Source of the DNA: a virus
IMG/VR virus record: IMGVR_UViG_3300033512_000218
Span: 75,611-139,610 of that record
Direction: 5' to 3' (one strand)
Length of the DNA: 64,000 bases
Both the position numbers and the translations under genes were made by a program. Shown one piece after another: positions 2,500 through 61,711 of this stretch; position 1 is the stretch's first letter; the number at the start of each line of letters is the position of its first letter. The notes below the pieces were generated by a model. The model was not told the DNA's origin and did no database searches. It saw only the letters and a program-made list of their open reading frames with translations.

Positions 2500-2558
2500 T
2501 TTAACATTTATTAACATAAATTAATTTTGATTTAGTTAATAAATGTTTTATCTTTGTA
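2500..2558 (+). promoter_or_regulatory. Repeated early promoter cassette (copy 1, with internal inverted operator copy)
   Basis: TTTAACATTTATTAAC...TTTG...GTTAATAAATGTT.TATCTTTG; Bacteroidota -33/-7 consensus. Confidence 0.85.
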
Positions 2559-11351: not shown

Positions 11352-11409
11352 TTTAACATTTATTAACAATATTGTATTTGTATTTTGAAAATAAATAGTT
11401 TATCTTTGT
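11352..11409 (+). promoter_or_regulatory. Repeated early promoter cassette (copy 3)
   Basis: TTTAACATTTATTAAC...TTTG...TATCTTTG. Confidence 0.85.
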
Positions 11410-27148: not shown

Positions 27149-27206
27149 ACAAAGATAAAACATTTATTAACAAAATACAAATAAAATATTGTTAATAAAT
27201 GTTAAA
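27149..27206 (-). promoter_or_regulatory. Repeated early promoter cassette (copy 6, with internal inverted operator copy)
   Basis: Reverse complement of cassette; 15-bp IR AACATTTATTAACAA/TTGTTAATAAATGTT. Confidence 0.85.
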
Positions 27207-27900: not shown

Positions 27901-28030
27901 ATTAAAAAACAATGGATTATATTAAAATATTCTGTAATATAAAATAAATTAAAAACAAATAAAAATAATTAAAAAAAATTTAATAATTTTAATACTTCAA
28001 CTTTTTCATATTAGTATTTATATAAAAAGA

Positions 28031-28630
28031 ATGAAATCAAGGGAAGTTAAAAAAATTTTAAATATTACACAACAAACATTACACAATTATATTATTGAAG
28101 GTAAAATTAAATATATTAAAATTAATAAATATCATTACAATTATAATGATTAAGATGTTTATAAACTAATTGGTATTAAAAAAGAAAAAAAGAATAAATT
28201 AAATGTATCTTATTCCAGAATTAGTAATAAAAGAAATGATGATTTAAAAGAACAATCTCAAAGAATATATAATTATTGTATATCAAAAGGAATTAATTTA
28301 AATTATCAATTCGAAGATATTAAAAGTGGAATGAATTTTGATAGACAAGATTTTAATAAACTAATCGAACTTATTATTAAAGGTGAAATTGAATTACTTA
28401 TCATTGAAAATAAAGATAGATTAGTTAGATTTGGATTTGAACTATTAGAAAATATTTTTAAATATTTCGGTACTAAAATAATTGTTATTAATGATTCATT
28501 ATCAAATAAAACATATGAACAAGAATTAACTGATGATTTAATATATATCATACATTATTTTAGTATGAAATCTTATTCAAATAGAAGAAAATTAAATAAA
28601 ATTAAAAAAGATTTACAAGAAACAAATTGA
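28031..28630 (+). pseudogene. tnpA: IS607 TnpA serine recombinase with premature stop
   Basis: N-terminal HTH, YSRIS catalytic motif, DIKSGMNFDR, KDRLVRFGF, EQELTDDL; TAA at 28151. Confidence 0.9.
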
Positions 28631-30216
28631 TTACGATTAAATTAAATATTATTTCTAATTCAAATCCCGATTATATAATTGAAAAACAAAAGAATTACTC
28701 TTTTGCTTTTAGAAAATTATATAAACATTTTATTTTGGACGATAAAATGTTTAATAAATTATTAATGGAAAAATATAATTTATCTGTTTATGAATTTAAT
28801 TGTTTAATAATTGATGTTCAAACTAAAATTAATCAAGTTAAAACTCAAAAGGATAAATTAGAATCAAAAATAATCTCAATAGAAAAAGATATAAAATTAT
28901 TACAAGATAATATAAAATCTATTAAAAATACAAGAAAAATATTTAAATTAAATAAAAAGTTAAGTTATTTTAACAAATTATTATCCAAAGATATTGTATT
29001 TGGAAATAAAACTATATTACAACAAATAAGTTATTTATCAAATAATAAATTATCGAATAACAATGATATATTAAAACATAAAGAAACATATAAAAATAAT
29101 AGATTATTATCTATTAATTATATTGGAAGTAAAGATGATAAAAATAGTAATAGATATTTTAATTTTGATTTTGATAATAATTTAATTATTTATAAACAAA
29201 CCAATAAAATAAAAATAGAGTTAAAATATAAAGTATCAAATAATTACAAAAAATATTTAAATAGATTACAAGAAATAAAAGACAATAAAATATTACCAAT
29301 ATCAGTTCGATTAACAAATAAATTTATATATTTAACAATAGATAATCAAAAATTAAATGGTTATGATTTTAAACAATTAGAATATAATAAAAAAGTAAAA
29401 GGAATAAAAGATAAACAAATAAGAAAAGATATACTTATTAGTTTTTATAATGAACAAAGAGAAAGAATGTTACAAAATAAATTACCTAATCGATACATAT
29501 CAATTGATTTAAATCCAAATTATATAGGATGTTGTATATTAGATAAAATATATGAAGATAATTTTAAAATAATTGATAAATTTTGTTTTGATTTAAGTAA
29601 ATTAAATATAAAATCTAATAAGAATAGTGATGATAAATTATCAAAATATTTAAACAATAAGAGAAAATATGAGATAAGCATAATTTATAAAATATTATTT
29701 AATAAAGCAAAACATTATAAAGTATCCCATTTTGTAATAGAAGAATTAAATTTCAAACAACAAAATATAAATGATAAATCAAAAGAAGTTAATAGATTAA
29801 CCAAAAACGTTTGGAACAGAACTTATCAATATAATTTAATAAATAAATATTGTTTAGAAAGAGGGATTGAATTAATAGAAGTTAATCCAGTTTATTCAAG
29901 TTTTATAGGAAATATTTTATATAATTATTTTGACCCTGTTAATTCTTCAATAGAAATATGTCGAAGAGGAATAATTAAATATATAAAAAACAGTAAATTT
30001 TACCCAGTATTAACGAGTACAATAATTGACACTATGATAAATAGATTTAAATCTATTGGAGATGTTCAATTTATTAAAGATTGTGAAAGTTGGATAGAAT
30101 TATATAAAAATACAAAATCTCTAAATTTTATATATCGAGTACAATTAGATGATGTGAATCATCAATTGTTCAGCTTAAACAATACAAAAAGTAAAGTAAA
30201 TTATATTACTTTTTAA
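28627..30216 (+). CDS. tnpB: TnpB-like RNA-guided nuclease lacking Zn finger
   Basis: RuvC-I SIDLN, RuvC-II VIEEL, VNPVYSS, RuvC-III FDPVNSSIEI; TTG start overlapping tnpA stop. Confidence 0.85.
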   Translation: MITIKLNIISNSNPDYIIEKQKNYSFAFRKLYKHFILDDKMFNKLLMEKYNLSVYEFNCLIIDVQTKINQVKTQKDKLESKIISIEKDIKLLQDNIKSIKNTRKIFKLNKKLSYFNKLLSKDIVFGNKTILQQISYLSNNKLSNNNDILKHKETYKNNRLLSINYIGSKDDKNSNRYFNFDFDNNLIIYKQTNKIKIELKYKVSNNYKKYLNRLQEIKDNKILPISVRLTNKFIYLTIDNQKLNGYDFKQLEYNKKVKGIKDKQIRKDILISFYNEQRERMLQNKLPNRYISIDLNPNYIGCCILDKIYEDNFKIIDKFCFDLSKLNIKSNKNSDDKLSKYLNNKRKYEISIIYKILFNKAKHYKVSHFVIEELNFKQQNINDKSKEVNRLTKNVWNRTYQYNLINKYCLERGIELIEVNPVYSSFIGNILYNYFDPVNSSIEICRRGIIKYIKNSKFYPVLTSTIIDTMINRFKSIGDVQFIKDCESWIELYKNTKSLNFIYRVQLDDVNHQLFSLNNTKSKVNYITF

Positions 30217-34384: not shown

Positions 34385-34411
34385 AAAACCTACAATTAAT
34401 TGTAGGTTTTT
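34385..34411. terminator. Bidirectional terminator
   Basis: AAAACCTACAAT-TA-ATTGTAGGTTTT between convergent genes. Confidence 0.85.
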
Positions 34412-34414
34412 AAA

Positions 34415-34810
34415 TTATAAATGATTATTTAATGTAGGTTTAGTTTTTGAAGTTTTACTAAAATAATATTCTAAATGTTTATAAATCATATGTTGAGGGA
34501 TATAATTTAAATTATATCTATTAAAAATTATTTCTTTAACTTGTTTAATAGAATTTAAATCAATTGTATTTTCACAATCTAATCTTTCAGATGTGATATA
34601 ATTTTCGTCCTCTAATATGGATGCTTTTTCACAACATAAATCAACTGTTTCTGATATTATTTTTGATAATAATAATGTACTATCATTGAACCAATCTTCC
34701 ACTATTTTGTATGATGCATATTCCTCCATAGCATTAATTAAAGATTCAAATTGTCCTCTTTCATTAAATGAATATGGTAATGCTCTTAATATTTTTTCTG
34801 CTTTGTTCAT
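34415..34810 (-). CDS. Hypothetical protein
   Basis: 131 aa; AMEEYA...IDLNSI. Confidence 0.65.
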   Translation of the reverse strand: MNKAEKILRALPYSFNERGQFESLINAMEEYASYKIVEDWFNDSTLLLSKIISETVDLCCEKASILEDENYITSERLDCENTIDLNSIKQVKEIIFNRYNLNYIPQHMIYKHLEYYFSKTSKTKPTLNNHL

Positions 34811-34820
34811 GTTTTAAATA

Positions 34821-35231
34821 TTATTGATAATAAATATATGATATTATTTTAGGTGTTATTTTTAAATTATAATTATTATATAAATATATTTGTAATTCTT
34901 CAACTTCATTATTTAATAATTTAGTATTTATATCTTGAATTTTATTTGTTGTATAAATAACCCTACCAAAATATAATTCATTTAAATTTTCAGGGAAAAC
35001 TGATGTTCGACTTAATATTTTATAATCAGTTGAAAATACATTATCATCCAAATAATTACTAAGTATAATATCAGTATTTTTAATTTTGATAGTTCGTTCT
35101 GTTACTTGTTTTGTTCCTATTATTTCATGATAATCGTTTCTTATAGGAATATTTAACAGATTTAACCCAACATCAACAAAATCCAATAAATCTATAACAC
35201 ATGATATTTTATTATAAACTGTTGTACTCAT
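34821..35231 (-). CDS. Hypothetical protein
   Basis: 136 aa. Confidence 0.65.
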   Translation of the reverse strand: MSTTVYNKISCVIDLLDFVDVGLNLLNIPIRNDYHEIIGTKQVTERTIKIKNTDIILSNYLDDNVFSTDYKILSRTSVFPENLNELYFGRVIYTTNKIQDINTKLLNNEVEELQIYLYNNYNLKITPKIISYIYYQ

Positions 35232-35243
35232 TATTTTATGTTT

Positions 35244-35876
35244 TTATTTTTTAATAAATTTAGTTTTATATAAATTATTTATATTTAAAATATAAACTCC
35301 TTCATTTAAAAATTCAACATTTATTAAATTTTCATTTGTTGAAATAATAATATTTCCGTATAAATCATAAATATCAATTGAATTTATATTATCATACTCA
35401 ATATGTATAATATCAGTTGTAGGATTAGGAAATATATAAATATTATCATTGATATTATTTAAACTTAATAAATTTGATACTGATAAATCATATACAATAT
35501 AATTATTATTAGGATTATTATCAAATATATAATCATTATTAACAGTTAATACTAAATAATTATACGTTAAATCAGTATTAATATATTCAGTAACACCACG
35601 TTCAACAAATGATTTACATACAATTTCTGTTATCGTATCTGTATAAATTAAATTAGTTAATACTGTAGTGTCATTTGTTAGATAATAATTTACTAAAGTG
35701 AAATTAAATAATAATGAATCATCCACTTCTGGTTGGTGATTATAATTTCCTAACATAACAAAGGTTTTATAGTTATTTTCAAACTGGTTATACTTTTGAA
35801 AATAAAAATCTACTTGAGATTTACAAATCGAAAAGGTGAATAATATCACAATAACTAAAATACTAATTTTTTTCAT
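35244..35876 (-). CDS. Secreted protein with T9SS type A C-terminal sorting domain
   Basis: Sec signal MKKISILVIVILFTFSICKS/Q; C-terminal IFPNPTTDII.I...IYDLYG...LNEGVYIL.I...KFIKK. Confidence 0.9.
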   Translation of the reverse strand: MKKISILVIVILFTFSICKSQVDFYFQKYNQFENNYKTFVMLGNYNHQPEVDDSLLFNFTLVNYYLTNDTTVLTNLIYTDTITEIVCKSFVERGVTEYINTDLTYNYLVLTVNNDYIFDNNPNNNYIVYDLSVSNLLSLNNINDNIYIFPNPTTDIIHIEYDNINSIDIYDLYGNIIISTNENLINVEFLNEGVYILNINNLYKTKFIKK

Positions 35877-35914
35877 TTTTTTATTTTTATGGGTTTATAA
35901 CTTTTAAATAAATA

Positions 35915-36301
35915 CTATAATTCAATGAAGTAATTTTTATTATACTCATCCAATAAATTATTTAATAACTCATAAGATGTTTTATTTATTTTTATTTCAT
36001 GATATGTATAATCGTATAAGTATATAACAAAATCATTTTGTATTATTTCATTTATATTTATAGATGAATAATAATCAAATGAATCACAATCAACAGAACC
36101 ATATCCAACAGATACTATTTGATATTTATTATTTATTATATCTATAATATAAACATATTCATCATCGAAATTATATAAAACTATCCCTTTTGCGTCATAA
36201 TAGCACGCTTTATCATTAATATGATAATTATCACTATTTTTTTCTAAAAATATTTCAATACTTTCAAAGTATAAATCTTCCTTTATTTTATTTTCTTTCA
36301 T
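35915..36301 (-). CDS. Hypothetical acidic protein
   Basis: 128 aa. Confidence 0.65.
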   Translation of the reverse strand: MKENKIKEDLYFESIEIFLEKNSDNYHINDKACYYDAKGIVLYNFDDEYVYIIDIINNKYQIVSVGYGSVDCDSFDYYSSININEIIQNDFVIYLYDYTYHEIKINKTSYELLNNLLDEYNKNYFIEL

Positions 36302-36313
36302 TTTATAAGATTA

Positions 36314-36685
36314 TTAGAATGCAAAACAATTAAAATTTTTGTATAAAAAGGAATTTACACCTTTTTTATTTTTACTATAACAACCATTATTTCTATTATA
36401 TAAGTGAGTAAAACTCAAATTAAAATCAATAGTATTGTCTATTTCAAACCAAGCCCAAACATTTTTCTTATATTCAAAACCAAATACATGGTTTGCAAAA
36501 GTATATGAATAAGTTTTAGGAGTGTATGTTGTTTTTGTCATGATATCAATACCAAATCTTTTAAAGGTATCATCTGCTTCAACTGTAATATAATCAACCT
36601 TACACGCAACATTATTACTAAATTCATACGGTATATTTTTATCTTTTAAATAACCTATCAATTTTTTCGCTTCAATTTTATTCAT
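36314..36685 (-). CDS. Hypothetical protein
   Basis: 123 aa after promoter copy 8. Confidence 0.7.
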   Translation of the reverse strand: MNKIEAKKLIGYLKDKNIPYEFSNNVACKVDYITVEADDTFKRFGIDIMTKTTYTPKTYSYTFANHVFGFEYKKNVWAWFEIDNTIDFNLSFTHLYNRNNGCYSKNKKGVNSFLYKNFNCFAF

Positions 36686-36708: not shown

Positions 36709-36766
36709 ACAAAGATAATATAAATAAAGACAAAATACAAATTAATTCATGTTAATAAATGTTAAA
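36709..36766 (-). promoter_or_regulatory. Repeated early promoter cassette (copy 8)
   Basis: Reverse complement of cassette. Confidence 0.85.
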
Positions 36767-38421: not shown

Positions 38422-38441
38422 ATTTTTTAATTTGTTATATC

Positions 38442-38499
38442 ACAAAGATAATATAAATAAAGTAAAAATACAAATAAAATAATGTTAATAAATGTTAAA
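38442..38499 (-). promoter_or_regulatory. Repeated early promoter cassette (copy 9)
   Basis: Reverse complement of cassette. Confidence 0.85.
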
Positions 38500-38501
38500 T
38501 A

Positions 38502-38509
38502 GTATTTAT
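38502..38509 (+). promoter_or_regulatory. Putative late promoter GTATTTAT, back-to-back with early cassette
   Basis: 27 nt before ATG 38529. Confidence 0.7.
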
Positions 38510-38528
38510 ATAAAACAAAAATAAGTAA

Positions 38529-39004: not shown

Positions 39005-40612
39005 ATGCAAAAAACAAAAGAAGAATTACTTTTATTAAATATTAATAGAATATACGAAAATACAACTAATGATATAACAGGTGAAATATTACAACAACAT
39101 CTGGAAGATATTATTGATTCAATGGCTATTACAGGATTACCATCATCCCTTACAAATAATTTAGGAGAATGGGATGCTGATACTAATACTCCAACAATTG
39201 TAAGCTCAATTGGTAGTAACGGAGATTTTTATATTGTATCAGTTGAAGGTAATACTTTGATAAATGATATAGATGATTGGAATGTAGATGACTATATATG
39301 GTATGATGGTAGTACAGAAACTTGGCAAAAAATATCAAATAGTTCAGGATTATCAATTCCAGGAGGAATAACAGGTACTGTACAATTTAATAATTATGGA
39401 GAATTTTCTGGAGATGATAATTTCTTTTGGAATAATACAACTAAAAAACTTGGATTAGGATTATATCCATCAGAGTCTATATACCCTACACCAAGAGAAA
39501 GACTACATTTATTAAGTGGTAAAATTAGAATAGAAGATTTAAAAAGTAAAACTTTATTAGGTACTGATGTATATGGTAATATAATTGAAAGTACATATAA
39601 TCCTACATTAATAACTTCTATTACACATTCACAATTATTAACATTAAAAACAAATAATCTATTAACAAAAGGACAAAAATACGTTATAACTGATTTTAAA
39701 ACTAAATATAATCAAGTTGTAACAAATACTATAAAAGAAGCATCTTCATTTGAAACAATAGTTTTAACTGCTACAAGTATAAATACATTTGATATAGTTG
39801 TACAAAGTGTTGAATATCCAAACGATATTATTAAATACGATATTACAAATATATTATGTGAAGATGGAATCACAAATAGAAAAGGCAAAATAACTTATAG
39901 AAAGGATACAGAAAATAATTTAGAAGTAGATGGATATGATTTTTTACAAATTTATCATGCTCGTTGGGAAACTTCTACTGGAAGTGGATTATTTACAGTT
40001 TTATTTGATAATGGAGAAGCAATGCAAGAGTTTTTAACTTTTGGTTCAGGTTGTTATGATATTTCTATTGGTAAACATACTAATTACAATAATATTGTAT
40101 TTGGAAATATTAATCATTCAATAACTATAGGAACTGATAACTATTCAATGACTTTTGGAAGTGTTAATTATTCAATGATTTTTGGAAATACAAATTATTC
40201 AATGACTTTTGGAAGTGCAAATAATTCTATAACATTCAGAGATAAAAACAATTCTATAAGTGTAGGAAATGCAAATTATTCACTAACTTTTGGTGATGCT
40301 AATTATTCCATAACTTTTGGAAGTGTTAATTATTCAATGACTTTTGGTGATGGTAATGACTCACTTAATTTCAATGATAATAATCATTCGATTAATTTTA
40401 AAAATTTAAATAGTTCAATAACTTTTGGAGATAGTAATTTAAAAATAGAAATTGGAAATAGTAATAATTTTTCAACTTTGACATTAGGAGTAAATTCAAT
40501 TGCGTTATTACAAAATTCATTATATGAAAAAACATTATATACAGATAATACAGATTTTGTAATTAGGTATATTGATAATTCAGATATAAACTTTATAGAT
40601 GCTACAACTTAA
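39005..40612 (+). CDS. Tail fibre/spike protein with beta-helical repeats
   Basis: GEWDADTNTPT, VQFNN.G.FSGD, L.KGQKYVITDF, 10-aa NYSMTFGSV repeats. Confidence 0.75.
   Translation: MQKTKEELLLLNINRIYENTTNDITGEILQQHLEDIIDSMAITGLPSSLTNNLGEWDADTNTPTIVSSIGSNGDFYIVSVEGNTLINDIDDWNVDDYIWYDGSTETWQKISNSSGLSIPGGITGTVQFNNYGEFSGDDNFFWNNTTKKLGLGLYPSESIYPTPRERLHLLSGKIRIEDLKSKTLLGTDVYGNIIESTYNPTLITSITHSQLLTLKTNNLLTKGQKYVITDFKTKYNQVVTNTIKEASSFETIVLTATSINTFDIVVQSVEYPNDIIKYDITNILCEDGITNRKGKITYRKDTENNLEVDGYDFLQIYHARWETSTGSGLFTVLFDNGEAMQEFLTFGSGCYDISIGKHTNYNNIVFGNINHSITIGTDNYSMTFGSVNYSMIFGNTNYSMTFGSANNSITFRDKNNSISVGNANYSLTFGDANYSITFGSVNYSMTFGDGNDSLNFNDNNHSINFKNLNSSITFGDSNLKIEIGNSNNFSTLTLGVNSIALLQNSLYEKTLYTDNTDFVIRYIDNSDINFIDATT
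40080..40470 (+). repeat. 30-nt (10-aa) degenerate tandem repeats within tail fibre
   Basis: Units like AATTATTCAATGACTTTTGGAAGTGTT. Confidence 0.8.
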
Positions 40613-44593: not shown

Positions 44594-44595
44594 TA

Positions 44596-44603
44596 GTATT
44601 TAT
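44596..44603 (+). promoter_or_regulatory. Putative late promoter GTATTTAT, back-to-back with early cassette
   Basis: 32 nt before ATG 44628. Confidence 0.7.
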
Positions 44604-44627
44604 ATAAAATAATATAAAAATTAAAAT

Positions 44628-46715: not shown

Positions 46716-46727
46716 AAAATATTTATA

Positions 46728-46735
46728 GTATTTAT
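46728..46735 (+). promoter_or_regulatory. Putative late promoter GTATTTAT
   Basis: Upstream of tail sheath. Confidence 0.7.
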
Positions 46736-46769
46736 ATAAAAAATATAAACAATAAAAAATAAAATAACT

Positions 46770-54410: not shown

Positions 54411-54467
54411 ACAAAGATAATATAAATAAAGTAAAAATACAAATTTAATTATGTTAATAAATGTTAA
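54411..54467 (-). promoter_or_regulatory. Repeated early promoter cassette (copy 12)
   Basis: Reverse complement of cassette. Confidence 0.85.
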
Positions 54468-54469
54468 TT

Positions 54470-54510
54470 GTATTTATATAAAAGATTAAAAAATATTTTT
54501 TAGTATTTAT
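54470..54510 (+). promoter_or_regulatory. Two tandem putative late promoters GTATTTAT
   Basis: At 54470 and 54503, before ATG 54529. Confidence 0.7.
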
Positions 54511-54528
54511 ATAAAAATAAAATATAAT

Positions 54529-56484
54529 ATGACAAAAGAATTTAAACAAATAAAAAGTATTATTGATAAAGGAAGAATAACAGAAAATAATTTTTTATCA
54601 AGTAATCCAAATTTATCATTATTAAATGAAATAATGTATTCATCTGATACTAATATTCAAGATGAAGATGAATTATCTGAAATGGTTAATTTTATTTCTA
54701 CAATACAAAATGAATTAGAAAAAACATCAAATGATTCAATAATTAAACCATATCAGTATCTTACATTAAAAAGTGCAATTAATGCTCATATTCCAAGTAG
54801 TTCATTATTTTCATTAGATGTATTAAGTAGAGGACAAATAGTTAATTTATATAATAGTTTAGTTGAAAAAATTAAATCTATGGGATTATATCAATTATTT
54901 GCTAAACAAACACCTGTTCCAGTTGAAATACAAAATAATACTCAACTAACAGAAAGTAAATTACAAGACGATTATAATGACTATTTTAATACTATAATGA
55001 AATTAAAAGGTATTAAAAAAATTGAAAATTTAAAAGATAAAGAAAAATCTGATTTTTTTACATTGGTTGGTAAATATTGGAAAGAAGGTGAAGGTGCTAA
55101 AGCTGGTTGGGAAGATAAAATAAAAAAAGAGTTGAATATTAATGAAAATGTAAACAATGATTATTTAATTGGAACAGATGAAGATATTAAAAAATTAGTT
55201 GAAACATCATTTAAAAAAATAAATATACAGGATTTAACAGAAGTTGTAACTATACCCATAAGAGTAGGTAAAAATGGAGCTACATATAACTATTATATTG
55301 GATATATTAGAGACGAAAAACTATTTGTGATAGGTTCAGGATTTTTATCACACGAAACTTTATACAATAAACATTATAAAACAGATGATAGATTTACAGA
55401 AACAAAAAATATTAATAAGGCAAAGGAAACATTATTTAATAAAATAAAAAAACAACTTGATTTTATAAAAAATAAAACAAAAAAAGAAAATAATGTAAAT
55501 GAAAATAGCAACGAATGGGTTCCATTTGAATCAATTTATCCAGTTCACAAATTTAAAAAAGGACAAAAAGTTTTAACTAAAGATAATAATATTGAAACTG
55601 TTTTAAGAATTAATAGTAATGGAAATATCGAAACAGAAGAAAATGATTATAGTTGTAATCCTAATACATTAAAAATTAATAAAAAAGATGTTAAAGTTCA
55701 AATAAAAGAAAATATAATAATAAAACCATATATTAATAAAAAGGGTATCGAGGACGGACTATCAATATCATATAATAGTGATATATATAAAATTGTTTAT
55801 GATGCAGATTATAATAGAATATACGGAATAGTATTTCCAAATGATAATATAATAAAAAATATTACAAAGGATAAAGATGCTAAAAAAATGTATAAAATAT
55901 TTGAACCTACAATAAATGATTATATACAAAAGAATAAACTTAAATTAGAAAATATAACAATAAAACAAAAACAATTATTGGAATCTTACATTGAGAAACA
56001 AGTAAGAAAATATTTAAATGAATCCAAAAATATAAATGTATTTGATAATATACATTCTCTTTCCATGACATACCCAAAAATCTATAACGAAATGACTCGT
56101 GATATGATAAATGGATTAACAAAATGGTTTAATGAAAATGGACAACTAAAAATATCAGGTAATGATATAATATTCATCGCTTCAAATAAAATAGTTGATA
56201 AAAAACTATATAATAAATGGCAAAAAGCAATTGATGATATGATAAAAAATACAAATGATATATTCAATAATTCAATGAATGAATCAGTAACATATCAAAT
56301 TTCAATAACAATAGATAAAAAAAATAAATCTACAGTAGAAAAAATATTAAATGATAATATTGGTTGGGATGAATATGATGAACAAGAACGTTTTGATAAT
56401 ATAATATATAGTTTAACAAAAAAAGATTTTAAAAAAGTAGAAAAATTAATTACTAATTATATTGAAGATAAAGAAACAATATAA
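54529..56484 (+). CDS. Modular protein, probable protease-processed internal head protein
   Basis: Many [LIVM]xE sites between short modules; internal KQKQLLESYIEKQVRKYLNE. Confidence 0.6.
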   Translation: MTKEFKQIKSIIDKGRITENNFLSSNPNLSLLNEIMYSSDTNIQDEDELSEMVNFISTIQNELEKTSNDSIIKPYQYLTLKSAINAHIPSSSLFSLDVLSRGQIVNLYNSLVEKIKSMGLYQLFAKQTPVPVEIQNNTQLTESKLQDDYNDYFNTIMKLKGIKKIENLKDKEKSDFFTLVGKYWKEGEGAKAGWEDKIKKELNINENVNNDYLIGTDEDIKKLVETSFKKINIQDLTEVVTIPIRVGKNGATYNYYIGYIRDEKLFVIGSGFLSHETLYNKHYKTDDRFTETKNINKAKETLFNKIKKQLDFIKNKTKKENNVNENSNEWVPFESIYPVHKFKKGQKVLTKDNNIETVLRINSNGNIETEENDYSCNPNTLKINKKDVKVQIKENIIIKPYINKKGIEDGLSISYNSDIYKIVYDADYNRIYGIVFPNDNIIKNITKDKDAKKMYKIFEPTINDYIQKNKLKLENITIKQKQLLESYIEKQVRKYLNESKNINVFDNIHSLSMTYPKIYNEMTRDMINGLTKWFNENGQLKISGNDIIFIASNKIVDKKLYNKWQKAIDDMIKNTNDIFNNSMNESVTYQISITIDKKNKSTVEKILNDNIGWDEYDEQERFDNIIYSLTKKDFKKVEKLITNYIEDKETI

Positions 56485-57007: not shown

Positions 57008-57063
57008 TCATAAATTTAGTGTATAAGTATAACAACTTATACACTTTAAAAAACAAATATAAT

Positions 57064-57582
57064 ATGAATATAAAACAAAAACAATTATTAGAATCATATA
57101 TAGAAAAACAGGTAAAAAAAATATTAACTGAAGAAACAGTTGATTCTAAAATAACTATATCAGATATAGAAGATAAATATAAAACTCAAAAATCTTTACA
57201 TAAAGAATTACAAAAAGAATATGATAAATTTATGGAATATTATAATTCCAAATATTATGATATATTTTATGAAACAAGTAGACTATCGAAGGATTATGAA
57301 TCTAATTTAATTAGTAATATATCAAAACATCTAATTAATATAGATAATCTTCCTAAACCAAATTCAAATGAGATTTATATGTATAAAAAGAAATATAAAT
57401 TATCATTTCTTAATAATATAAAAAATGAAGGACTTAACTATATGATTAGAAATGAACAAACTTTAGAATCTATTGAAGGATATATACCTAATAATTTAAC
57501 CGTTGATAAAGCAACAAAATTTTTAATTGATAAAATTAAAGAATTTGAGAAAAAATATAAAAGTAGTAAATTAGTTAAATAA
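57064..57582 (+). CDS. Hypothetical protein with repeated leader
   Basis: Start moved to ATG 57064 by leader homology. Confidence 0.7.
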   Translation: MNIKQKQLLESYIEKQVKKILTEETVDSKITISDIEDKYKTQKSLHKELQKEYDKFMEYYNSKYYDIFYETSRLSKDYESNLISNISKHLINIDNLPKPNSNEIYMYKKKYKLSFLNNIKNEGLNYMIRNEQTLESIEGYIPNNLTVDKATKFLIDKIKEFEKKYKSSKLVK

Positions 57583-58454: not shown

Positions 58455-58943
58455 ATGGCAACAATATTAGAAACAAACGAAATGATGTTTACAGCATTTG
58501 AACCTAAACAAAAATTTCGTTATATAATGGAAATAGAAGGTATTCCAACATATTTAATAAAATCATCTAAACGTCCTTCTTATGAAAGTAACGAAGTAAC
58601 AATACCTCATATCAATACCGAATTTTTTGTAAAAGGAAAATCTCATTGGGGAGAAATAAATGCTTCTCTTTTAGACCCTATTACTCCGTCAGGTTCTCAA
58701 ATAGTAATTAACTGGGTACGTGCCCATCATGAATCAGTTACAGGTAGAGATGGTTATGCAGACTTCTACAAAAAAGATATTACTCTTAGTATGTTAGGTC
58801 CTATCGGAGATGTTGTAGAAAATTGGACTTTAAAAGGAACTTGGTTAAAATCTGTTGATTTTGGTGATTTAGCGTGGGATTCAGAAGAAATAACAGGTAT
58901 TGAATTAACTATGCGACCAGATTATTGTATATTAAATTATTAA
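58455..58943 (+). CDS. Tail tube protein (gp19-like)
   Basis: FEPKQKFR, DPITPSGSQ.V..W, TGRDGYADFYKKD, LGPIGDVVENWTLKG. Confidence 0.9.
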   Translation: MATILETNEMMFTAFEPKQKFRYIMEIEGIPTYLIKSSKRPSYESNEVTIPHINTEFFVKGKSHWGEINASLLDPITPSGSQIVINWVRAHHESVTGRDGYADFYKKDITLSMLGPIGDVVENWTLKGTWLKSVDFGDLAWDSEEITGIELTMRPDYCILNY

Positions 58944-58955
58944 AATATAAATACT

Positions 58956-59408
58956 ATGAATATAAAACAAAAACAATTATTAGAATCTTACATTGAAAAA
59001 CAAGTAAGAAAATATTTGAATGAAGAAAATTCAAATGAAAGACCTATTGATAAAGCAAATTGGACTTTAATTAAAAAATGGTGGAATACAGTTAATGATA
59101 ATGGATATGATGAATTTACAAAATTTGCACCTAAAGAATGGGATACAAATGAAGAAGTAATTAAAAATTATGGAGAAAATTCAGGAGTGGACCGTTTTAA
59201 ATCATTAATAGTTGGTAATACAAATGGTAACCATATGTTAGTAAATAAAAAATATTCAATGTTTGGATTACCATTAAATATTAATATTTTTGAATATTTA
59301 AATGCAAATGGGAGTGGATTTAATAAAGACAAAAACTTTAACAAGTATAAAAGATGGCAAGGTGCTATATATGATATTTATGAAGGAATAAAAAATAAAT
59401 TGAAATAA
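58956..59408 (+). CDS. Hypothetical protein with repeated leader
   Basis: MNIKQKQLLESYIEKQVRKYLNE. Confidence 0.7.
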   Translation: MNIKQKQLLESYIEKQVRKYLNEENSNERPIDKANWTLIKKWWNTVNDNGYDEFTKFAPKEWDTNEEVIKNYGENSGVDRFKSLIVGNTNGNHMLVNKKYSMFGLPLNINIFEYLNANGSGFNKDKNFNKYKRWQGAIYDIYEGIKNKLK

Positions 59409-59410
59409 TC

Positions 59411-59659
59411 ATGACATCAAAACAAAAACAACTATTGGAATCATATATTGAAAAACAAGTAAGAAAACATTTAAATGAAGGAAAAATATTTGATGATGAT
59501 GATATAAATTATATACGTAAAAAATTATTTGATATTTCAAAAGAAATAGCATCAATACGAAGTGGTTATTATGATACAGATTTTAAATATATTAAAGAAT
59601 TAGAAAAAGCAGAACAAATATTGGATGATATTAGAAGAAAATTAACTAAAGGTGTATAA
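59411..59659 (+). CDS. Hypothetical protein with repeated leader
   Basis: MTSKQKQLLESYIEKQVRKHLNE. Confidence 0.7.
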   Translation: MTSKQKQLLESYIEKQVRKHLNEGKIFDDDDINYIRKKLFDISKEIASIRSGYYDTDFKYIKELEKAEQILDDIRRKLTKGV

Positions 59660-60026: not shown

Positions 60027-61711
60027 ACAAAAAAGTATTAAATACAATTAAAATTAAGTAAAATTTCTTTATTTTATTTAATTATATTTATGATTACGAT
60101 TAAATTAAATATTATCTCCAACTCAAATCCCAATTATATAATTGAAAAACAAAAGAATTACTCTTTTGCTTTTAGAAAATTATATAAAAATTTTATTTTA
60201 GACGATAAAATATTTAATAAATATCTAATAGATAAATATAAATTATCTGTTTATGAATTTAATTGTTTAATAATTGATGTTAAAACTAAAATTAATCAAG
60301 TTAAAACTCAAAAGGATAAATTAGAATCAAAAATAATCTCAATAGAAAAAGATATAAAAGTATTACAAAATAATAAAAAATCTATTAAAAATACAAGAAA
60401 AATATTTAAACTTAATAAAAGTTTAAATTATTTTAATAAATTATTATCTAAAGATATTGTATTCGGAAATAAAAAAATATTACAACAAATAAGTTATTTA
60501 TCAAATAATAAATTATTGAATAACAATGATATAATAAGTCATAAAAAAATATATAAAAATAACAGATTATTATCTATTAATTATGTTGGAAGTAAAAACG
60601 ACCCAAATAGTAATAGATATTTTAATTTTGATTTTGATAATAATGTAATTATTTATAAACAACCTAATAAAACAAAAATAGAGTTAAAATATAAAGTATC
60701 AAATAATTACAAAAAGTATTTAAATAGATTACAAGAAATAAAAGATAATAAAATATTACCAATATCAGTTCGATTAACACATAAATTTATATATTTAACA
60801 ATAGATAATCAAAAATTAAATGGTTATGATTTTAAACAATTAGAATATAATAAAAAAGTAGAGGAAATAAAGGATAAACGGATAAGAAAAGATATATACA
60901 TTGATTTTTGTAATGAACAAAAAGAAAGAATGTTACAAAATAAATTACCTAATCGATACATGTCAATTGATTTAAATCCAAATTATATTGGATGTTGTAT
61001 ATTAGATAAAATAGATGAGGATAATTTTAACATTGTTGATAAATTCTGTTTCGATTTAAGTAAATTAAATATAAAATCTAATAAGAATAGTAATGATAAA
61101 TTATCAAAATATTTAAATAATAAAAGAAAATACGAAATAAGTATAATTTATAAAGTATTGTTTAATAAAGCAAAACACTATAAATTATCTCATTTTGTAA
61201 TGGAAGAATTAAATTTTAAACAACAAAATATAAATGATAAACCAAAAGAGTTTAACAGATTAATCAAAAACGTTTGGAATTTAAATTATCAATTTGAATT
61301 AATTAATAAATATTGTTTAGAAAGAGGGATTGAGTTAATAGAAGTCAATCCAGTTTATTCAAGTTTTATAGGAAATATTTTATATAATTATTTCGACCCA
61401 GTCAATTCAAGTATTGAGATATGTAGAAGAGGAATAATTAAATATATAAAAAACAACAAATTTTACCCAATAATAACAAGTACAATAATTGACACTATGA
61501 TAAATAGATTTCATTTAGAATCTATTGGAGATGTTCAATTTATTAAAGATTGTGAAAGTTGGATAGAATTATATAAAAATACAAAATCTCGAAATTTTAT
61601 ATATCGAGTACAATTAGATGATGTAAGTCATCAATTGTTCAGCTTAAACAATACAAAAAGTAAAGTAAATTATATTACTTTTTAACCATTTTGTATTGTT
61701 TTAGTATATAA
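60027..61711 (+). mobile_element. Non-autonomous tnpB-only derivative of the IS607 element
   Basis: Ends homologous to copy 1; excision restores NYCSK-HCWF frame. Confidence 0.85.
60090..61685 (+). CDS. tnpB: TnpB-like RNA-guided nuclease lacking Zn finger (copy 2)
   Basis: Close paralog of 28627..30216; D-E-D residues retained. Confidence 0.85.
   Translation: MITIKLNIISNSNPNYIIEKQKNYSFAFRKLYKNFILDDKIFNKYLIDKYKLSVYEFNCLIIDVKTKINQVKTQKDKLESKIISIEKDIKVLQNNKKSIKNTRKIFKLNKSLNYFNKLLSKDIVFGNKKILQQISYLSNNKLLNNNDIISHKKIYKNNRLLSINYVGSKNDPNSNRYFNFDFDNNVIIYKQPNKTKIELKYKVSNNYKKYLNRLQEIKDNKILPISVRLTHKFIYLTIDNQKLNGYDFKQLEYNKKVEEIKDKRIRKDIYIDFCNEQKERMLQNKLPNRYMSIDLNPNYIGCCILDKIDEDNFNIVDKFCFDLSKLNIKSNKNSNDKLSKYLNNKRKYEISIIYKVLFNKAKHYKLSHFVMEELNFKQQNINDKPKEFNRLIKNVWNLNYQFELINKYCLERGIELIEVNPVYSSFIGNILYNYFDPVNSSIEICRRGIIKYIKNNKFYPIITSTIIDTMINRFHLESIGDVQFIKDCESWIELYKNTKSRNFIYRVQLDDVSHQLFSLNNTKSKVNYITF

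What the first reader, a model, noticed from the sequence alone, without database searches (positions are those of the whole stretch)
35244..35876. Phage-encoded substrate for the host Type IX secretion system
Seen: a Sec signal peptide ending ...ICKS/Q, a short unique passenger (with DNNPNNNY), and a complete C-terminal IFPNPT...IYDLYG...L.EGVYIL...KFIKK domain. The gene sits in a transcription unit downstream of the early cassette at 36709-36766. Established: this is the pattern of the Bacteroidota T9SS type A sorting domain, and Gln after the signal-peptidase site is typical of Bacteroidota secreted proteins. Inference: the phage routes its own protein through the host T9SS early in infection, for example to mask receptors, exclude superinfecting phages, or jam the translocon or gliding machinery. 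I know of no characterised phage T9SS cargo.
Basis: partly seen in the sequence, partly recalled or inferred. Interest (0 to 1): 0.82.

Follow-up and report, generated by a model that had tools for sequence, protein, structure and literature searches.

The report
Phage gene tagged for T9SS export
A large uncultured phage of a Bacteroidota host carries a small gene whose product has both the export signal and the tag read by the host's type IX secretion system, so infected cells probably export it; such phage genes have been reported before and are fairly common, and none has been tested.

Summary
ORF 35244-35876 (- strand, 210 aa) has a Sec-type signal peptide (cleavage ...CKS/Q), a 127-aa passenger and a complete T9SS type A C-terminal domain. 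The domain passes both curated cut-offs (PF18962 38.2 bits against 27; TIGR04183 31.4 against 23). It models confidently as a beta-sandwich whose best solved matches are F. johnsoniae CTDs trapped in the SprA-PorV translocon.

The gene belongs to the phage. The window is part of a 139.6-kb IMG/VR myovirus record of 22% GC, and the ORF has phage-like composition and codon use. It is the third gene of a tight five-gene operon behind one of 27 copies of a promoter cassette with the Bacteroidota sigma-A consensus (TTTG-N20-TAnnTTTG), so early, host-polymerase-driven expression is plausible.

The passenger is a strict orphan, with no relative among 1.84 billion proteins, so its function is only inferred.

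The novelty claim is overstated:
- Phage-encoded T9SS cargo was reported by Bellas 2020 and de Jonge 2019.
- I found the same architecture in cultured Flavobacterium phage immuto, in a 634-kb huge phage and in several large IMG/VR contigs.
- This scan has noted many such cases on other DNA.

I found no experimental test. Verdict: a new member of a known but uncharacterised kind, of moderate interest.

The parts
35244..35876 (-). Whole ORF, 210 aa plus stop: predicted phage-encoded T9SS type A cargo
   Evidence: It is the only PF18962 match in the 139.6-kb record.
35817..35876 (-). Signal peptide, residues 1-20 (MKK, 14 hydrophobic residues, C-K-S); predicted signal peptidase I cleavage before Q21
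   Evidence: Sequence and heuristic (the only classical cleavable signal peptide among 192 ORFs). Q at +1 fits the Bacteroidota Q-rule (PMC5837995). The same small-residue/Q junction is seen by eye in the analogous phage and viral-contig CTD proteins that have an N-terminus.
35436..35816 (-). Passenger, residues 21-147: orphan, N/Y/T/I-rich, probably beta-rich
   Evidence: No hit other than itself in 1.84 billion representatives, in the word-indexed 5.8 billion, in IMG/VR or in PHROGs. The Atlas structure look-alikes are CARDB/Ig-like beta-sandwiches (TM about 0.6), but the Atlas model is low-confidence.
35247..35435 (-). T9SS type A C-terminal sorting domain, residues 148-210, ending KFIKK
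   Evidence: PF18962 38.2 bits and TIGR04183 31.4 bits. Invariant P-N-P-T, D, G, G-x-Y columns and a Lys near the C-terminus conserved in the four-sequence alignment. AF2 mean pLDDT 80.9. Top PDB matches are 8GLK_D, 8GLJ_D, 8GL6_D, 8QB1 and 7PQ4.
36710..36765 (-). Promoter cassette of the operon: TTAACATTTATTAACA (36750-36765), -33 TTTG (36738-36741), 20-nt spacer, -7 TATCTTTG (36710-36717)
   Evidence: The consensus is that of Bacteroidota sigma-A promoters (PMC9723704). The cassette starts about 80 nt before the first ATG in nearly all copies.
36314..36685 (-). Operon gene 1, 123-aa ORFan
35915..36301 (-). Operon gene 2, 128-aa ORFan
34821..35231 (-). Operon gene 4, 136-aa ORFan, 12 nt downstream of the CTD gene
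34415..34810 (-). Operon gene 5, 131-aa ORFan
34385..34410 (-). Terminator-like hairpin (11-bp stem then T-run) closing the operon. It lies between the convergent tape-measure-like gene and the operon.
   Evidence: 2 terminator-like sites found against 0.3 expected.
35906..35917 (-). Late-motif look-alike TAGTATTTATTT, one mismatch inside the core GTATTTATAT, 29 nt before the CTD gene's ATG; significance uncertain
   Evidence: 21 matches with up to 1 mismatch against 9.2 expected by chance. Perfect copies precede the sheath and other structural genes.

Best explanation
The ORF is a phage-encoded substrate of the host's Sec and type IX secretion pathways. Proposed course: (1) Host RNA polymerase with sigma-A transcribes a five-gene operon (36685 to 34415, - strand) from a Bacteroidota-type promoter cassette, probably early in infection. 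This is inferred. (2) The 20-residue signal peptide takes the protein through Sec. Signal peptidase I cuts after Ser20, and Gln21 is cyclised by the host glutaminyl cyclase, as for most Bacteroidota exported proteins. This is inferred from sequence. (3) The 63-residue type A CTD, a beta-sandwich with a conserved Lys near the C-terminus, docks on the SprA-PorV translocon. The protein crosses the outer membrane, the CTD is removed, and the roughly 14-kDa passenger is either released or linked to the cell surface. The tag is shown; the transport is inferred. (4) The passenger is an orphan, probably a single Ig-like beta-sandwich, too small and featureless to be an obvious enzyme. My committed guess is a binding module that alters the surface of the infected cell, most likely by masking a T9SS-dependent surface receptor. 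That would stop further phages, or the phage's own progeny, from adsorbing unproductively. My odds: T9SS cargo about 0.75; early expression about 0.6; receptor masking or exclusion as the purpose about 0.25.
For: - CTD sequence: above curated cut-offs in two independent libraries and placed at the extreme C-terminus.
- Direct sequence match to CTDs solved inside the F. johnsoniae translocon: 8GLJ_D E 6e-4, 8GLK_D E 6e-3 (paper PMC10994853).
- CTD model: mean pLDDT 80.9. Its top Foldseek matches are T9SS CTDs (NucA, mirolase, FspA, RemA, RgpB, PorZ) at TM 0.56-0.67.
- Signal peptide with Q at +1, the Bacteroidota Q-rule, which phages of Porphyromonas also obey.
- Phage origin: tail sheath phrog_23 at E 1.7e-62; an IMG/VR virus record; uniform GC near 21%; ORF composition and codon use typical of the phage.
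- Bacteroidota host: 26 in-register TTTG-N~20-TAnnTTTG promoters; no Shine-Dalgarno use (3.6% of ORFs against 6.0% background); A-rich -3 and -10 to -13 positions; sheath similarity to Flavobacterium phage immuto.
- Operon: gaps of 10-38 nt, no terminator-like site before 34410.
- Recurrence of the same signal peptide / small passenger / CTD layout: cultured Flavobacterium phage immuto (cohesin plus CTD), huge phage LR745206, and large IMG/VR contigs carrying one or two CTD ORFs each.
Against: - Nothing about secretion, timing or function has been measured.
- The host is unknown, so its T9SS cannot be checked; my one attempt at a host clue failed.
- The passenger has no homologue at all, so there is no conservation evidence that it is under selection beyond an intact, codon-adapted frame. 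The full-length model is useless (pLDDT 38.9).
- Foldseek E-values for the 75-residue CTD are modest (2e-3 to 0.1). DUF3244 Ig-like proteins from Bacteroides thetaiotaomicron (which, from my own knowledge, lacks a T9SS) also appear among the fold matches, so the fold alone is not specific.
- A late-motif look-alike directly upstream of the gene leaves the timing open.
- The record is only about 60% complete.
Confidence: 0.72

Rival explanations
1. The protein is made to obstruct the T9SS rather than to deliver a useful passenger. As an abundant early cargo it would occupy the SprA-PorV translocon, or the PorU/PorV attachment step, and so shut down export of host adhesins, gliding proteins and surface receptors. 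The passenger would serve mainly as a plug or be irrelevant.
For: The passenger is an orphan with no detectable family, whereas the CTD is well kept. The CTD has the lowest GC of the gene yet retains every motif. The gene sits behind a strong-looking, highly repeated promoter cassette. T9SS and gliding mutations are cited as a route to phage resistance in Flavobacterium (Kunttu 2021, in the reference list read), so the T9SS-dependent surface matters to phages.
Against: Nothing in the sequence suggests stalling, such as a tightly folded or oversized passenger. Normal type A cargo of similar size is exported without jamming. The analogous phage proteins carry recognisable binding or enzyme domains (cohesin in immuto; glycoside hydrolases in Cryophage), which points to delivery of a passenger.
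Confidence: 0.1
2. The C-terminal domain is just an Ig-like beta-sandwich reused by the phage, as with the Ig-like decorations common on phage particles or a periplasmic binding protein, and it is not read by the T9SS. The protein would stay in the periplasm or inner membrane after Sec export.
For: The fold is generic. DUF3244 proteins from Bacteroides thetaiotaomicron (which, from my own knowledge, lacks a T9SS), CD4-like Ig domains and FN3 domains also appear among the Foldseek matches, and all Foldseek E-values are above 1e-3. HMM scores are only 8-11 bits above the cut-offs.
Against: At sequence level the match is to the sorting-domain families, with no DUF3244 hit for this protein. The match spans the whole model and ends at the last residue. 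The motifs and the Lys near the C-terminus that contacts PorV are present. A virion decoration would not carry a cleavable signal peptide.
Confidence: 0.1
3. The protein is a lipoprotein anchored through Cys18 (signal peptidase II substrate), for example an outer-membrane lysis or exclusion lipoprotein, and the CTD is incidental.
For: A Cys lies at the end of the hydrophobic region (F-S-I-C18).
Against: Ile at -1 does not fit the lipobox, which needs a small residue (Gly, Ala or Ser) there; this is from my own knowledge of the consensus. C-K-S/Q gives a good signal peptidase I site with the Bacteroidota-typical Gln. The analogous CTD proteins have no Cys at that place but all have small-residue/Q.
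Confidence: 0.04
4. The gene is a decaying or neutral passenger (a moron captured from a host long ago) with no role in infection, or is host DNA misassembled into the contig.
For: It is an orphan with no relatives, and the distant relatives of the phage by sheath similarity show no CTD gene in the fragments available.
Against: The frame is intact, every CTD motif is present, and composition and codon use are indistinguishable from the phage (GC3 9.5% against a mean of 11.5%). It lies inside a tight operon flanked on both sides by phage structural genes. Misassembly is effectively excluded.
Confidence: 0.04

Closest known systems
Type A CTD cargo of Flavobacterium johnsoniae (NucA, FspA, RemA, RemZ), solved bound to the SprA-PorV translocon (PDB 8GLK, 8GLJ, 8GL6, 8GL8; Lauber et al. 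2024, PMC10994853)
   Same: The C-terminal domain has the same length (about 65-75 aa), the same motifs and a Lys near the C-terminus, and the same beta-sandwich fold. These are the best sequence and fold matches in the PDB. Both have a Sec signal peptide at the N-terminus.
   Different: This protein is encoded by a phage, not the bacterium. The passenger is an orphan of about 127 aa, not a nuclease, adhesin or other known module. Export has not been tested.
Phage-encoded T9SS type A cargo of 'Cryophage' (Bellas et al. 2020, Nat Commun, PMC7468147), and T9SS sorting-domain ORFs in crAss-like cluster 2 phages (de Jonge et al. 2019, Viruses, PMC6949934)
   Same: These are uncultured phages of Bacteroidota carrying genes with the type A sorting domain. 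The authors proposed hijacking of the host T9SS and a possible role in competition or superinfection.
   Different: The Cryophage cargo are recognisable enzymes or PA14 proteins lying in hypervariable islands. Here the passenger is a tiny orphan, the phage is a roughly 22% GC myovirus estimated at about 230 kb, and the gene lies in an operon with a host-type promoter between tail genes.
immuto35A_15 (QQO91933) of cultured Flavobacterium phage vB_FspM_immuto_3-5A, annotated only as 'cohesin domain-containing protein'
   Same: Same layout and size class: signal peptide ending small-residue/Q, one small beta-sandwich passenger, and a type A CTD (36.7 bits) ending FKLIKK, 243 aa in all. The phage is a myovirus whose sheath C-terminal part is 43.7% identical to this phage's.
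   Different: Its passenger is a cohesin domain (PF00963, 36.6 bits) with no similarity to this passenger. The genomic position differs: it lies near nuclease and lectin-like genes.
199-aa ORF of huge phage LR745206 (634.8 kb), record positions 298054-298653
   Same: Signal peptide ending S-Y-S/Q, a passenger of about 110 aa with no family, and a type A CTD (47.7 bits) that is 37% identical to this CTD and ends KFIKN.
   Different: The passengers are unrelated, the neighbouring genes differ, and that record also has a second, weaker CTD-like ORF.

Membership tests
T9SS type A CTD cargo (TIGR04183 / PF18962) | Match to the sorting-domain profile above the curated cut-off, at the extreme C-terminus | tested here: met
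   PF18962 38.2 bits against 27, residues 148-207. TIGR04183 31.4 bits against 23, residues 148-210, covering model positions 1-72 of 72.
T9SS type A CTD cargo (TIGR04183 / PF18962) | N-terminal Sec signal peptide cleaved by signal peptidase I | tested here: met
   MKK, 14 hydrophobic residues, then C-K-S/Q. It passes a simple signal-peptide heuristic, the only ORF of 192 to look like a cleavable signal. No SignalP was available, so the exact cleavage site is inferred.
T9SS type A CTD cargo (TIGR04183 / PF18962) | Conserved fold-determining motifs (PxP/YPNPT, D..G, GxY) and the nearly invariant Lys near the C-terminus that contacts PorV | tested here: met
   Invariant columns P, N, P, T, D, G, G, Y in the nine-sequence alignment. 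Lys conserved near the C-terminus in the four-sequence alignment. The role of the Lys is taken from PMC10994853.
T9SS type A CTD cargo (TIGR04183 / PF18962) | Seven-stranded beta-sandwich fold of the CTD | tested here: met
   AF2 with a 9-sequence alignment gives mean pLDDT 80.9, above 90 over the core, with six or seven strands. The top Foldseek PDB matches are T9SS CTDs at TM 0.56-0.67, but E-values are only 2e-3 to 0.1 because the domain is small.
T9SS type A CTD cargo (TIGR04183 / PF18962) | The producing cell has a T9SS (SprA, PorV, PorU, GldKLMN) | not testable with these tools
   The host is unknown. Indirect evidence points to a Bacteroidota host: promoter consensus, no Shine-Dalgarno use, Q-rule, and relatives infecting Flavobacterium. 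The host search through TnpB found nothing.
T9SS type A CTD cargo (TIGR04183 / PF18962) | Export depends on the T9SS and on the CTD, and the CTD is removed | not testable with these tools
   This needs expression in wild-type and T9SS-mutant Flavobacterium.
T9SS type B CTD cargo (TIGR04131) | Match to the type B sorting-domain profile | tested here: not met
   No TIGR04131 match in the whole record at E 0.01 or better, although the tool's control genomes did not respond either. The NCBIfam scan of this protein lists only type A and a sub-threshold type C match (16.1 bits against 40).
Bacterial lipoprotein (signal peptidase II substrate) | Lipobox with a small residue at -1 before the Cys | tested here: not met
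   The sequence is F-S-I-C18, with Ile at -1. The consensus is from my own knowledge.
Phage early gene driven by the host sigma-A polymerase | Host-type promoter upstream and no terminator before the gene | tested here: met
   TTTG (36738-36741), 20 nt, TATCTTTG (36710-36717), within a cassette repeated 27 times in the record. The consensus is from PMC9723704. The only terminator-like site on this strand is after the last gene. Actual timing is not testable here.

The most novel reading that the evidence does not exclude
A lytic, jumbo-sized Bacteroidota myovirus uses the host's own T9SS within minutes of infection to place an orphan Ig-like protein on the cell surface. There it masks or disables T9SS-dependent receptors or gliding adhesins. 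This would be a secretion-system-delivered superinfection-exclusion or progeny-protection device, a mechanism not yet demonstrated for any phage.
Probability: 0.2. Interest if true: 0.65.

Novelty: new member of a known kind. Interest (0 to 1): 0.36.

Why it matters
Phages of Bacteroidota, including abundant marine, freshwater and gut lineages, repeatedly carry one or two genes tagged for the host's type IX secretion system, yet none has been tested. If such proteins are exported early in infection, phages would be rewriting the surface or secretome of infected cells through a host machine that also drives gliding and virulence and supplies surface proteins linked to phage sensitivity.

This example adds a compact case of 210 aa with a single small passenger, which would be easy to express and track. 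It also has an unusually clear host-type promoter context. Because its passenger is an orphan, any lesson about function would not transfer directly to other phages. The cultured Flavobacterium phage immuto, which has the same architecture and a known host, is the better experimental entry point.

Tried and rejected
- **Full-length and passenger-only homology searches.** These covered 5.8 billion word-indexed proteins, 1.84 billion HMMER representatives, IMG/VR and PHROGs. Only the protein itself was found, so no family or conservation analysis of the passenger is possible.
- **Single-sequence AlphaFold2 of the whole protein.** Mean pLDDT was 38.9, which is unusable. I did not run a fold search on it.
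- **ESM Atlas look-alikes for the passenger.** Feature scores were at most 0.82, in the range shuffled sequences reach. The structure matches to CARDB/Ig-like domains rest on a low-confidence model. I keep this only as a lead.
- **Host identification through the phage's TnpB in 185,579 species genomes.** No relative was found.
- **Synteny comparison with relatives.** The tape-measure-like protein has no relative in IMG/VR. The sheath has only fragments at 39% identity or less, and those carry no CTD gene. No syntenic comparison was possible.
- **Generic sigma-70 promoter scan.** It found fewer sites than in shuffles, so it is uninformative in this AT-rich DNA.
- **Rejected readings.** Host misassembly is rejected on composition and codon use. 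A type B or type C CTD is rejected. A lipoprotein is rejected because of Ile at -1. A virion Ig-like decoration is rejected because of the cleavable signal peptide. An o-spanin is rejected because the lipobox does not fit, the protein is much larger than typical outer-membrane spanins, and it ends in a T9SS sorting domain.
- **Relation of this passenger to those of LR745206 and immuto.** No similarity was found.

Full report
**1. The observation**

The window has an ATG-initiated ORF of 210 codons at 35244-35876 on the - strand. Its product has four parts:
- It starts MKK, followed by 14 uncharged hydrophobic residues and C-K-S, then Gln21.
- The protein ends with IFPNPT...IYDLYG...EGVYIL...KFIKK.
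- That C-terminal stretch matches Pfam PF18962 (Por_Secre_tail) at 38.2 bits (cut-off 27, residues 148-207). It matches NCBIfam TIGR04183 (T9SS type A sorting domain) at 31.4 bits (cut-off 23, residues 148-210, model 1-72 of 72).

A type C sorting-domain model scores far below its cut-off. No type B domain is found in the record.

**2. Fold-level check of the tag**

A sequence search of the PDB returns two best hits, both 75-residue sorting-domain chains: 8GLJ_D (E 6e-4) and 8GLK_D (E 6e-3). These are F. johnsoniae type A CTDs trapped in the SprA-PorV translocon (Lauber et al. 2024, PMC10994853).

I built a nine-sequence alignment of CTDs from the window, one metagenome protein and IMG/VR loci. 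The P-N-P-T, D, G and G-x-Y columns are invariant. AlphaFold2 on this alignment gives mean pLDDT 80.9, above 90 across the core, with six to seven strands.

Foldseek against the PDB ranks T9SS CTDs at the top: NucA, mirolase, FspA, RemA, RgpB and PorZ, at TM 0.56-0.67. The E-values are modest (2e-3 to 0.1), as expected for a 75-residue domain, and generic Ig-like folds follow.

The paper states that the conserved motifs specify the fold, and that a nearly invariant Lys close to the C-terminus contacts PorV. A Lys near the C-terminus is conserved in the four-sequence alignment.

**3. Is it phage, and is it the phage's own gene?**

The window is bases 75611-139610 of a 139,610-bp IMG/VR virus record. 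The record is linear and about 60% complete by CheckV, which implies a genome of about 230 kb.
- It encodes a T4-type tail sheath (phrog_23, E 1.7e-62) and a tail protein.
- The nearest sheaths are from Microcystis phage Mel-JY01, a 484-kb uncultured phage, and (C-terminal part, 43.7% identity) Flavobacterium phage immuto.
- GC is about 20% along the whole window.
- The ORF has GC 18.1% and GC3 9.5%, against a phage mean GC3 of 11.5% (sd 5.1%). Its codon-usage score is at the 36th percentile of 192 ORFs.
- It is separated from its neighbours by 38 and 12 nt.

This is the only PF18962 match in the record. By a simple heuristic it is also the only ORF with a classical cleavable signal peptide.

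**4. Host phylum**

Three independent sequence features point to Bacteroidota.
- **Promoters.** In 26 of the copies it reads, in register, TTAACATTTATTAACA, 9-10 nt, TTTG, about 20 nt, TAnnTTTG (mostly TATCTTTG), about 25 nt, ATG. TAnnTTTG is the -7 box of Bacteroidota sigma-A (PMC9723704). TTTG at -33 is its partner; that part is from my own knowledge of Bacteroides and Flavobacterium promoters.
- **Translation starts.** Only 3.6% of 192 ORFs have a Shine-Dalgarno-like word at -20 to -4, against 6.0% background. A is enriched at -3 (72%) and at -10 to -13 (66-74%). This is the initiation context I recall for F. johnsoniae; PMC6847099 (listed) reports that Bacteroidetes mRNAs lack Shine-Dalgarno sequences, but I did not read its position-specific data.
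- **Signal-peptide junction.** It obeys the Bacteroidota Q-rule (PMC5837995), as do proteins of Porphyromonas phages (PMC10367356).

The host species is unknown. A search for relatives of the phage's TnpB in species genomes found nothing.

**5. Transcription context**

The cassette copy at 36750-36765 has its -33 at 36738-36741 and its -7 at 36710-36717. It precedes a five-gene - strand operon:
- 36314-36685
- 35915-36301
- the CTD gene, 35244-35876
- 34821-35231
- 34415-34810

The intergenic gaps are 10-38 nt. The only terminator-like hairpin on that strand is at 34410-34385, just after the last gene. The four neighbours have no Pfam or PHROG family.

A second motif, GTATTTATAT, lies 17-59 nt before the sheath gene and other structural genes. 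The cassettes precede small ORFan operons instead.

A one-mismatch copy of the late motif (TAGTATTTATTT, 35906-35917) lies 29 nt before the CTD gene's ATG. Roughly half of such one-mismatch matches are expected by chance (21 found against 9.2 expected), so late transcription cannot be excluded.

**6. The passenger**

Residues 21-147 have no relative other than the protein itself:
- in an exhaustive HMMER search of 1.84 billion representatives
- in the 5.8-billion word-indexed search of the full-length protein
- in IMG/VR
- in PHROGs

The single-sequence structure model is unusable (pLDDT 38.9). The ESM Atlas holds a low-confidence model whose nearest structures are CARDB/Ig-like beta-sandwiches at TM about 0.6. 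This is only a lead. The best available description is a small, probably beta-sandwich, non-enzymatic module.

**7. How unusual is it?**

Two papers had already reported phage-encoded T9SS sorting domains.
- Bellas et al. 2020 (PMC7468147) found three type A cargo genes in 'Cryophage'. They proposed hijacking of the host system, with possible roles in competition or superinfection.
- De Jonge et al. 2019 (PMC6949934) noted sorting-domain ORFs in crAss-like phages.

My own sampling shows that the pattern recurs.
- The 634.8-kb phage LR745206 encodes a 199-aa protein with signal peptide .../Q, an unassigned passenger and a CTD of 47.7 bits, plus a weaker second one.
- The cultured Flavobacterium phage vB_FspM_immuto_3-5A encodes a 243-aa protein with signal peptide .../Q, a cohesin domain and a CTD of 36.7 bits. 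It is annotated only as 'cohesin domain-containing protein'.
- A very narrow pattern scan of IMG/VR returned nine loci (seven distinct) with signal peptide, cargo and CTD ORFs of 244-1029 aa.
- Five of those contigs (108-425 kb, CheckV 37-97% complete) carry one or two CTD ORFs each.
- A cyanophage and a 484-kb phage related by sheath carry none.

This scan's own notes list many further cases on other DNA. I treat those only as agreeing leads.

I found no paper that tests secretion or function of any phage T9SS cargo.

**8. Mechanism and rivals**

The best-supported reading has three steps:
1. Sec export, with signal peptidase I cleavage before Gln21.
2. Docking of the CTD on SprA-PorV, transport across the outer membrane and removal of the CTD.
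3. Release or surface attachment of the small passenger by the infected cell.

I put this route at about 0.72-0.75. For purpose I commit, at about 0.25, to surface masking: exclusion of further phages or protection of progeny. T9SS and gliding mutations are cited as a route to phage resistance in Flavobacterium (Kunttu 2021, in the reference list read), and the phage analogues carry binding-type modules such as cohesin.

The rivals are:
- deliberate jamming of the translocon (0.10)
- an Ig-like domain that the T9SS does not read (0.10)
- a lipoprotein (0.04; Ile at -1 does not fit a lipobox)
- a neutral relic (0.04)

**9. Verdict**

It is a new member of a known, repeatedly reported but experimentally untouched kind. 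Interest is moderate. The case is clean and compact with a clear promoter context, but the passenger is an orphan in a phage without close relatives or a known host. The cultured immuto phage is the better route to an experiment.

Noticed in passing
window, 11 exact copies, e.g. 2501-2516(+), 11353-11368(+), 27190-27205(-), 36750-36765(-), 38483-38498(-), 54452-54467(-); 27 copies in the whole record: A highly conserved promoter cassette of about 80 nt. It has an upstream direct repeat TTAACA-TTTA-TTAACA, then Bacteroidota -33 TTTG and -7 TATCTTTG, and starts about 80 nt before the first ATG in nearly all copies. The invariant upstream 16-mer looks like a binding site for a regulator or an UP-like element rather than part of the core promoter.
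   Followed up: partly
window 28012-28023, 38500-38511, 44594-44605, 46726-46737, 54501-54512 (+ strand): A second motif, TAGTATTTATAT, lies 17-59 nt before the sheath gene and other structural genes. It is a candidate late promoter. At 38422-38528 it lies back to back with an early cassette in a divergent intergenic region.
   Followed up: partly
window 28627-30216 and 60090-61685 (+ strand): Two copies of a roughly 530-aa ORF, noted elsewhere in the scan as TnpB of an IS607-like element. Their DNA is 94-98% identical over the repeated stretches (families D4, D7, D16). No relative was found in 185,579 species genomes by the pattern scan.
   Followed up: partly
window 40046-40487, inside ORF 39005-40612 (+): Twelve tandem copies of a 27-nt unit (nine-residue repeats) inside a tail protein. 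The protein matches the minor tail protein family phrog_13892 at its N-terminal part.
   Followed up: no
window 55940-56026, 57050-57136, 58942-59028, 59397-59483 (+ strand): A stretch of about 87 nt, near-identical at DNA level, that includes the start and the first 20 or so codons of three otherwise different ORFs and also occurs inside the 651-aa ORF (family D5). It may be a shared N-terminal targeting or processing leader.
   Followed up: no
L007 1006-1737 (MW353176.1 12691-13422), cultured Flavobacterium phage vB_FspM_immuto_3-5A: immuto35A_15 is annotated only as 'cohesin domain-containing protein'. It has a Q-rule signal peptide and a type A T9SS sorting domain above cut-off (36.7 bits). 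It is therefore a testable phage T9SS cargo in a cultured phage-host pair.
   Followed up: partly
L008 1270-1680 (LR745206.1, near 397.3-397.7 kb): A 136-aa ORF with an internal signal-peptide-like stretch and a sub-threshold CTD-like end (25.1 bits against 27), with almost no passenger. It may be a minimal or degenerate sorting-domain protein in a huge phage.
   Followed up: no
whole record (192 ORFs): The phage uses no Shine-Dalgarno sequences (3.6% of ORFs against 6.0% background). It has A at -3 in 72% of starts and an A-rich block at -10 to -13, the initiation context I recall for Bacteroidota.
   Followed up: yes
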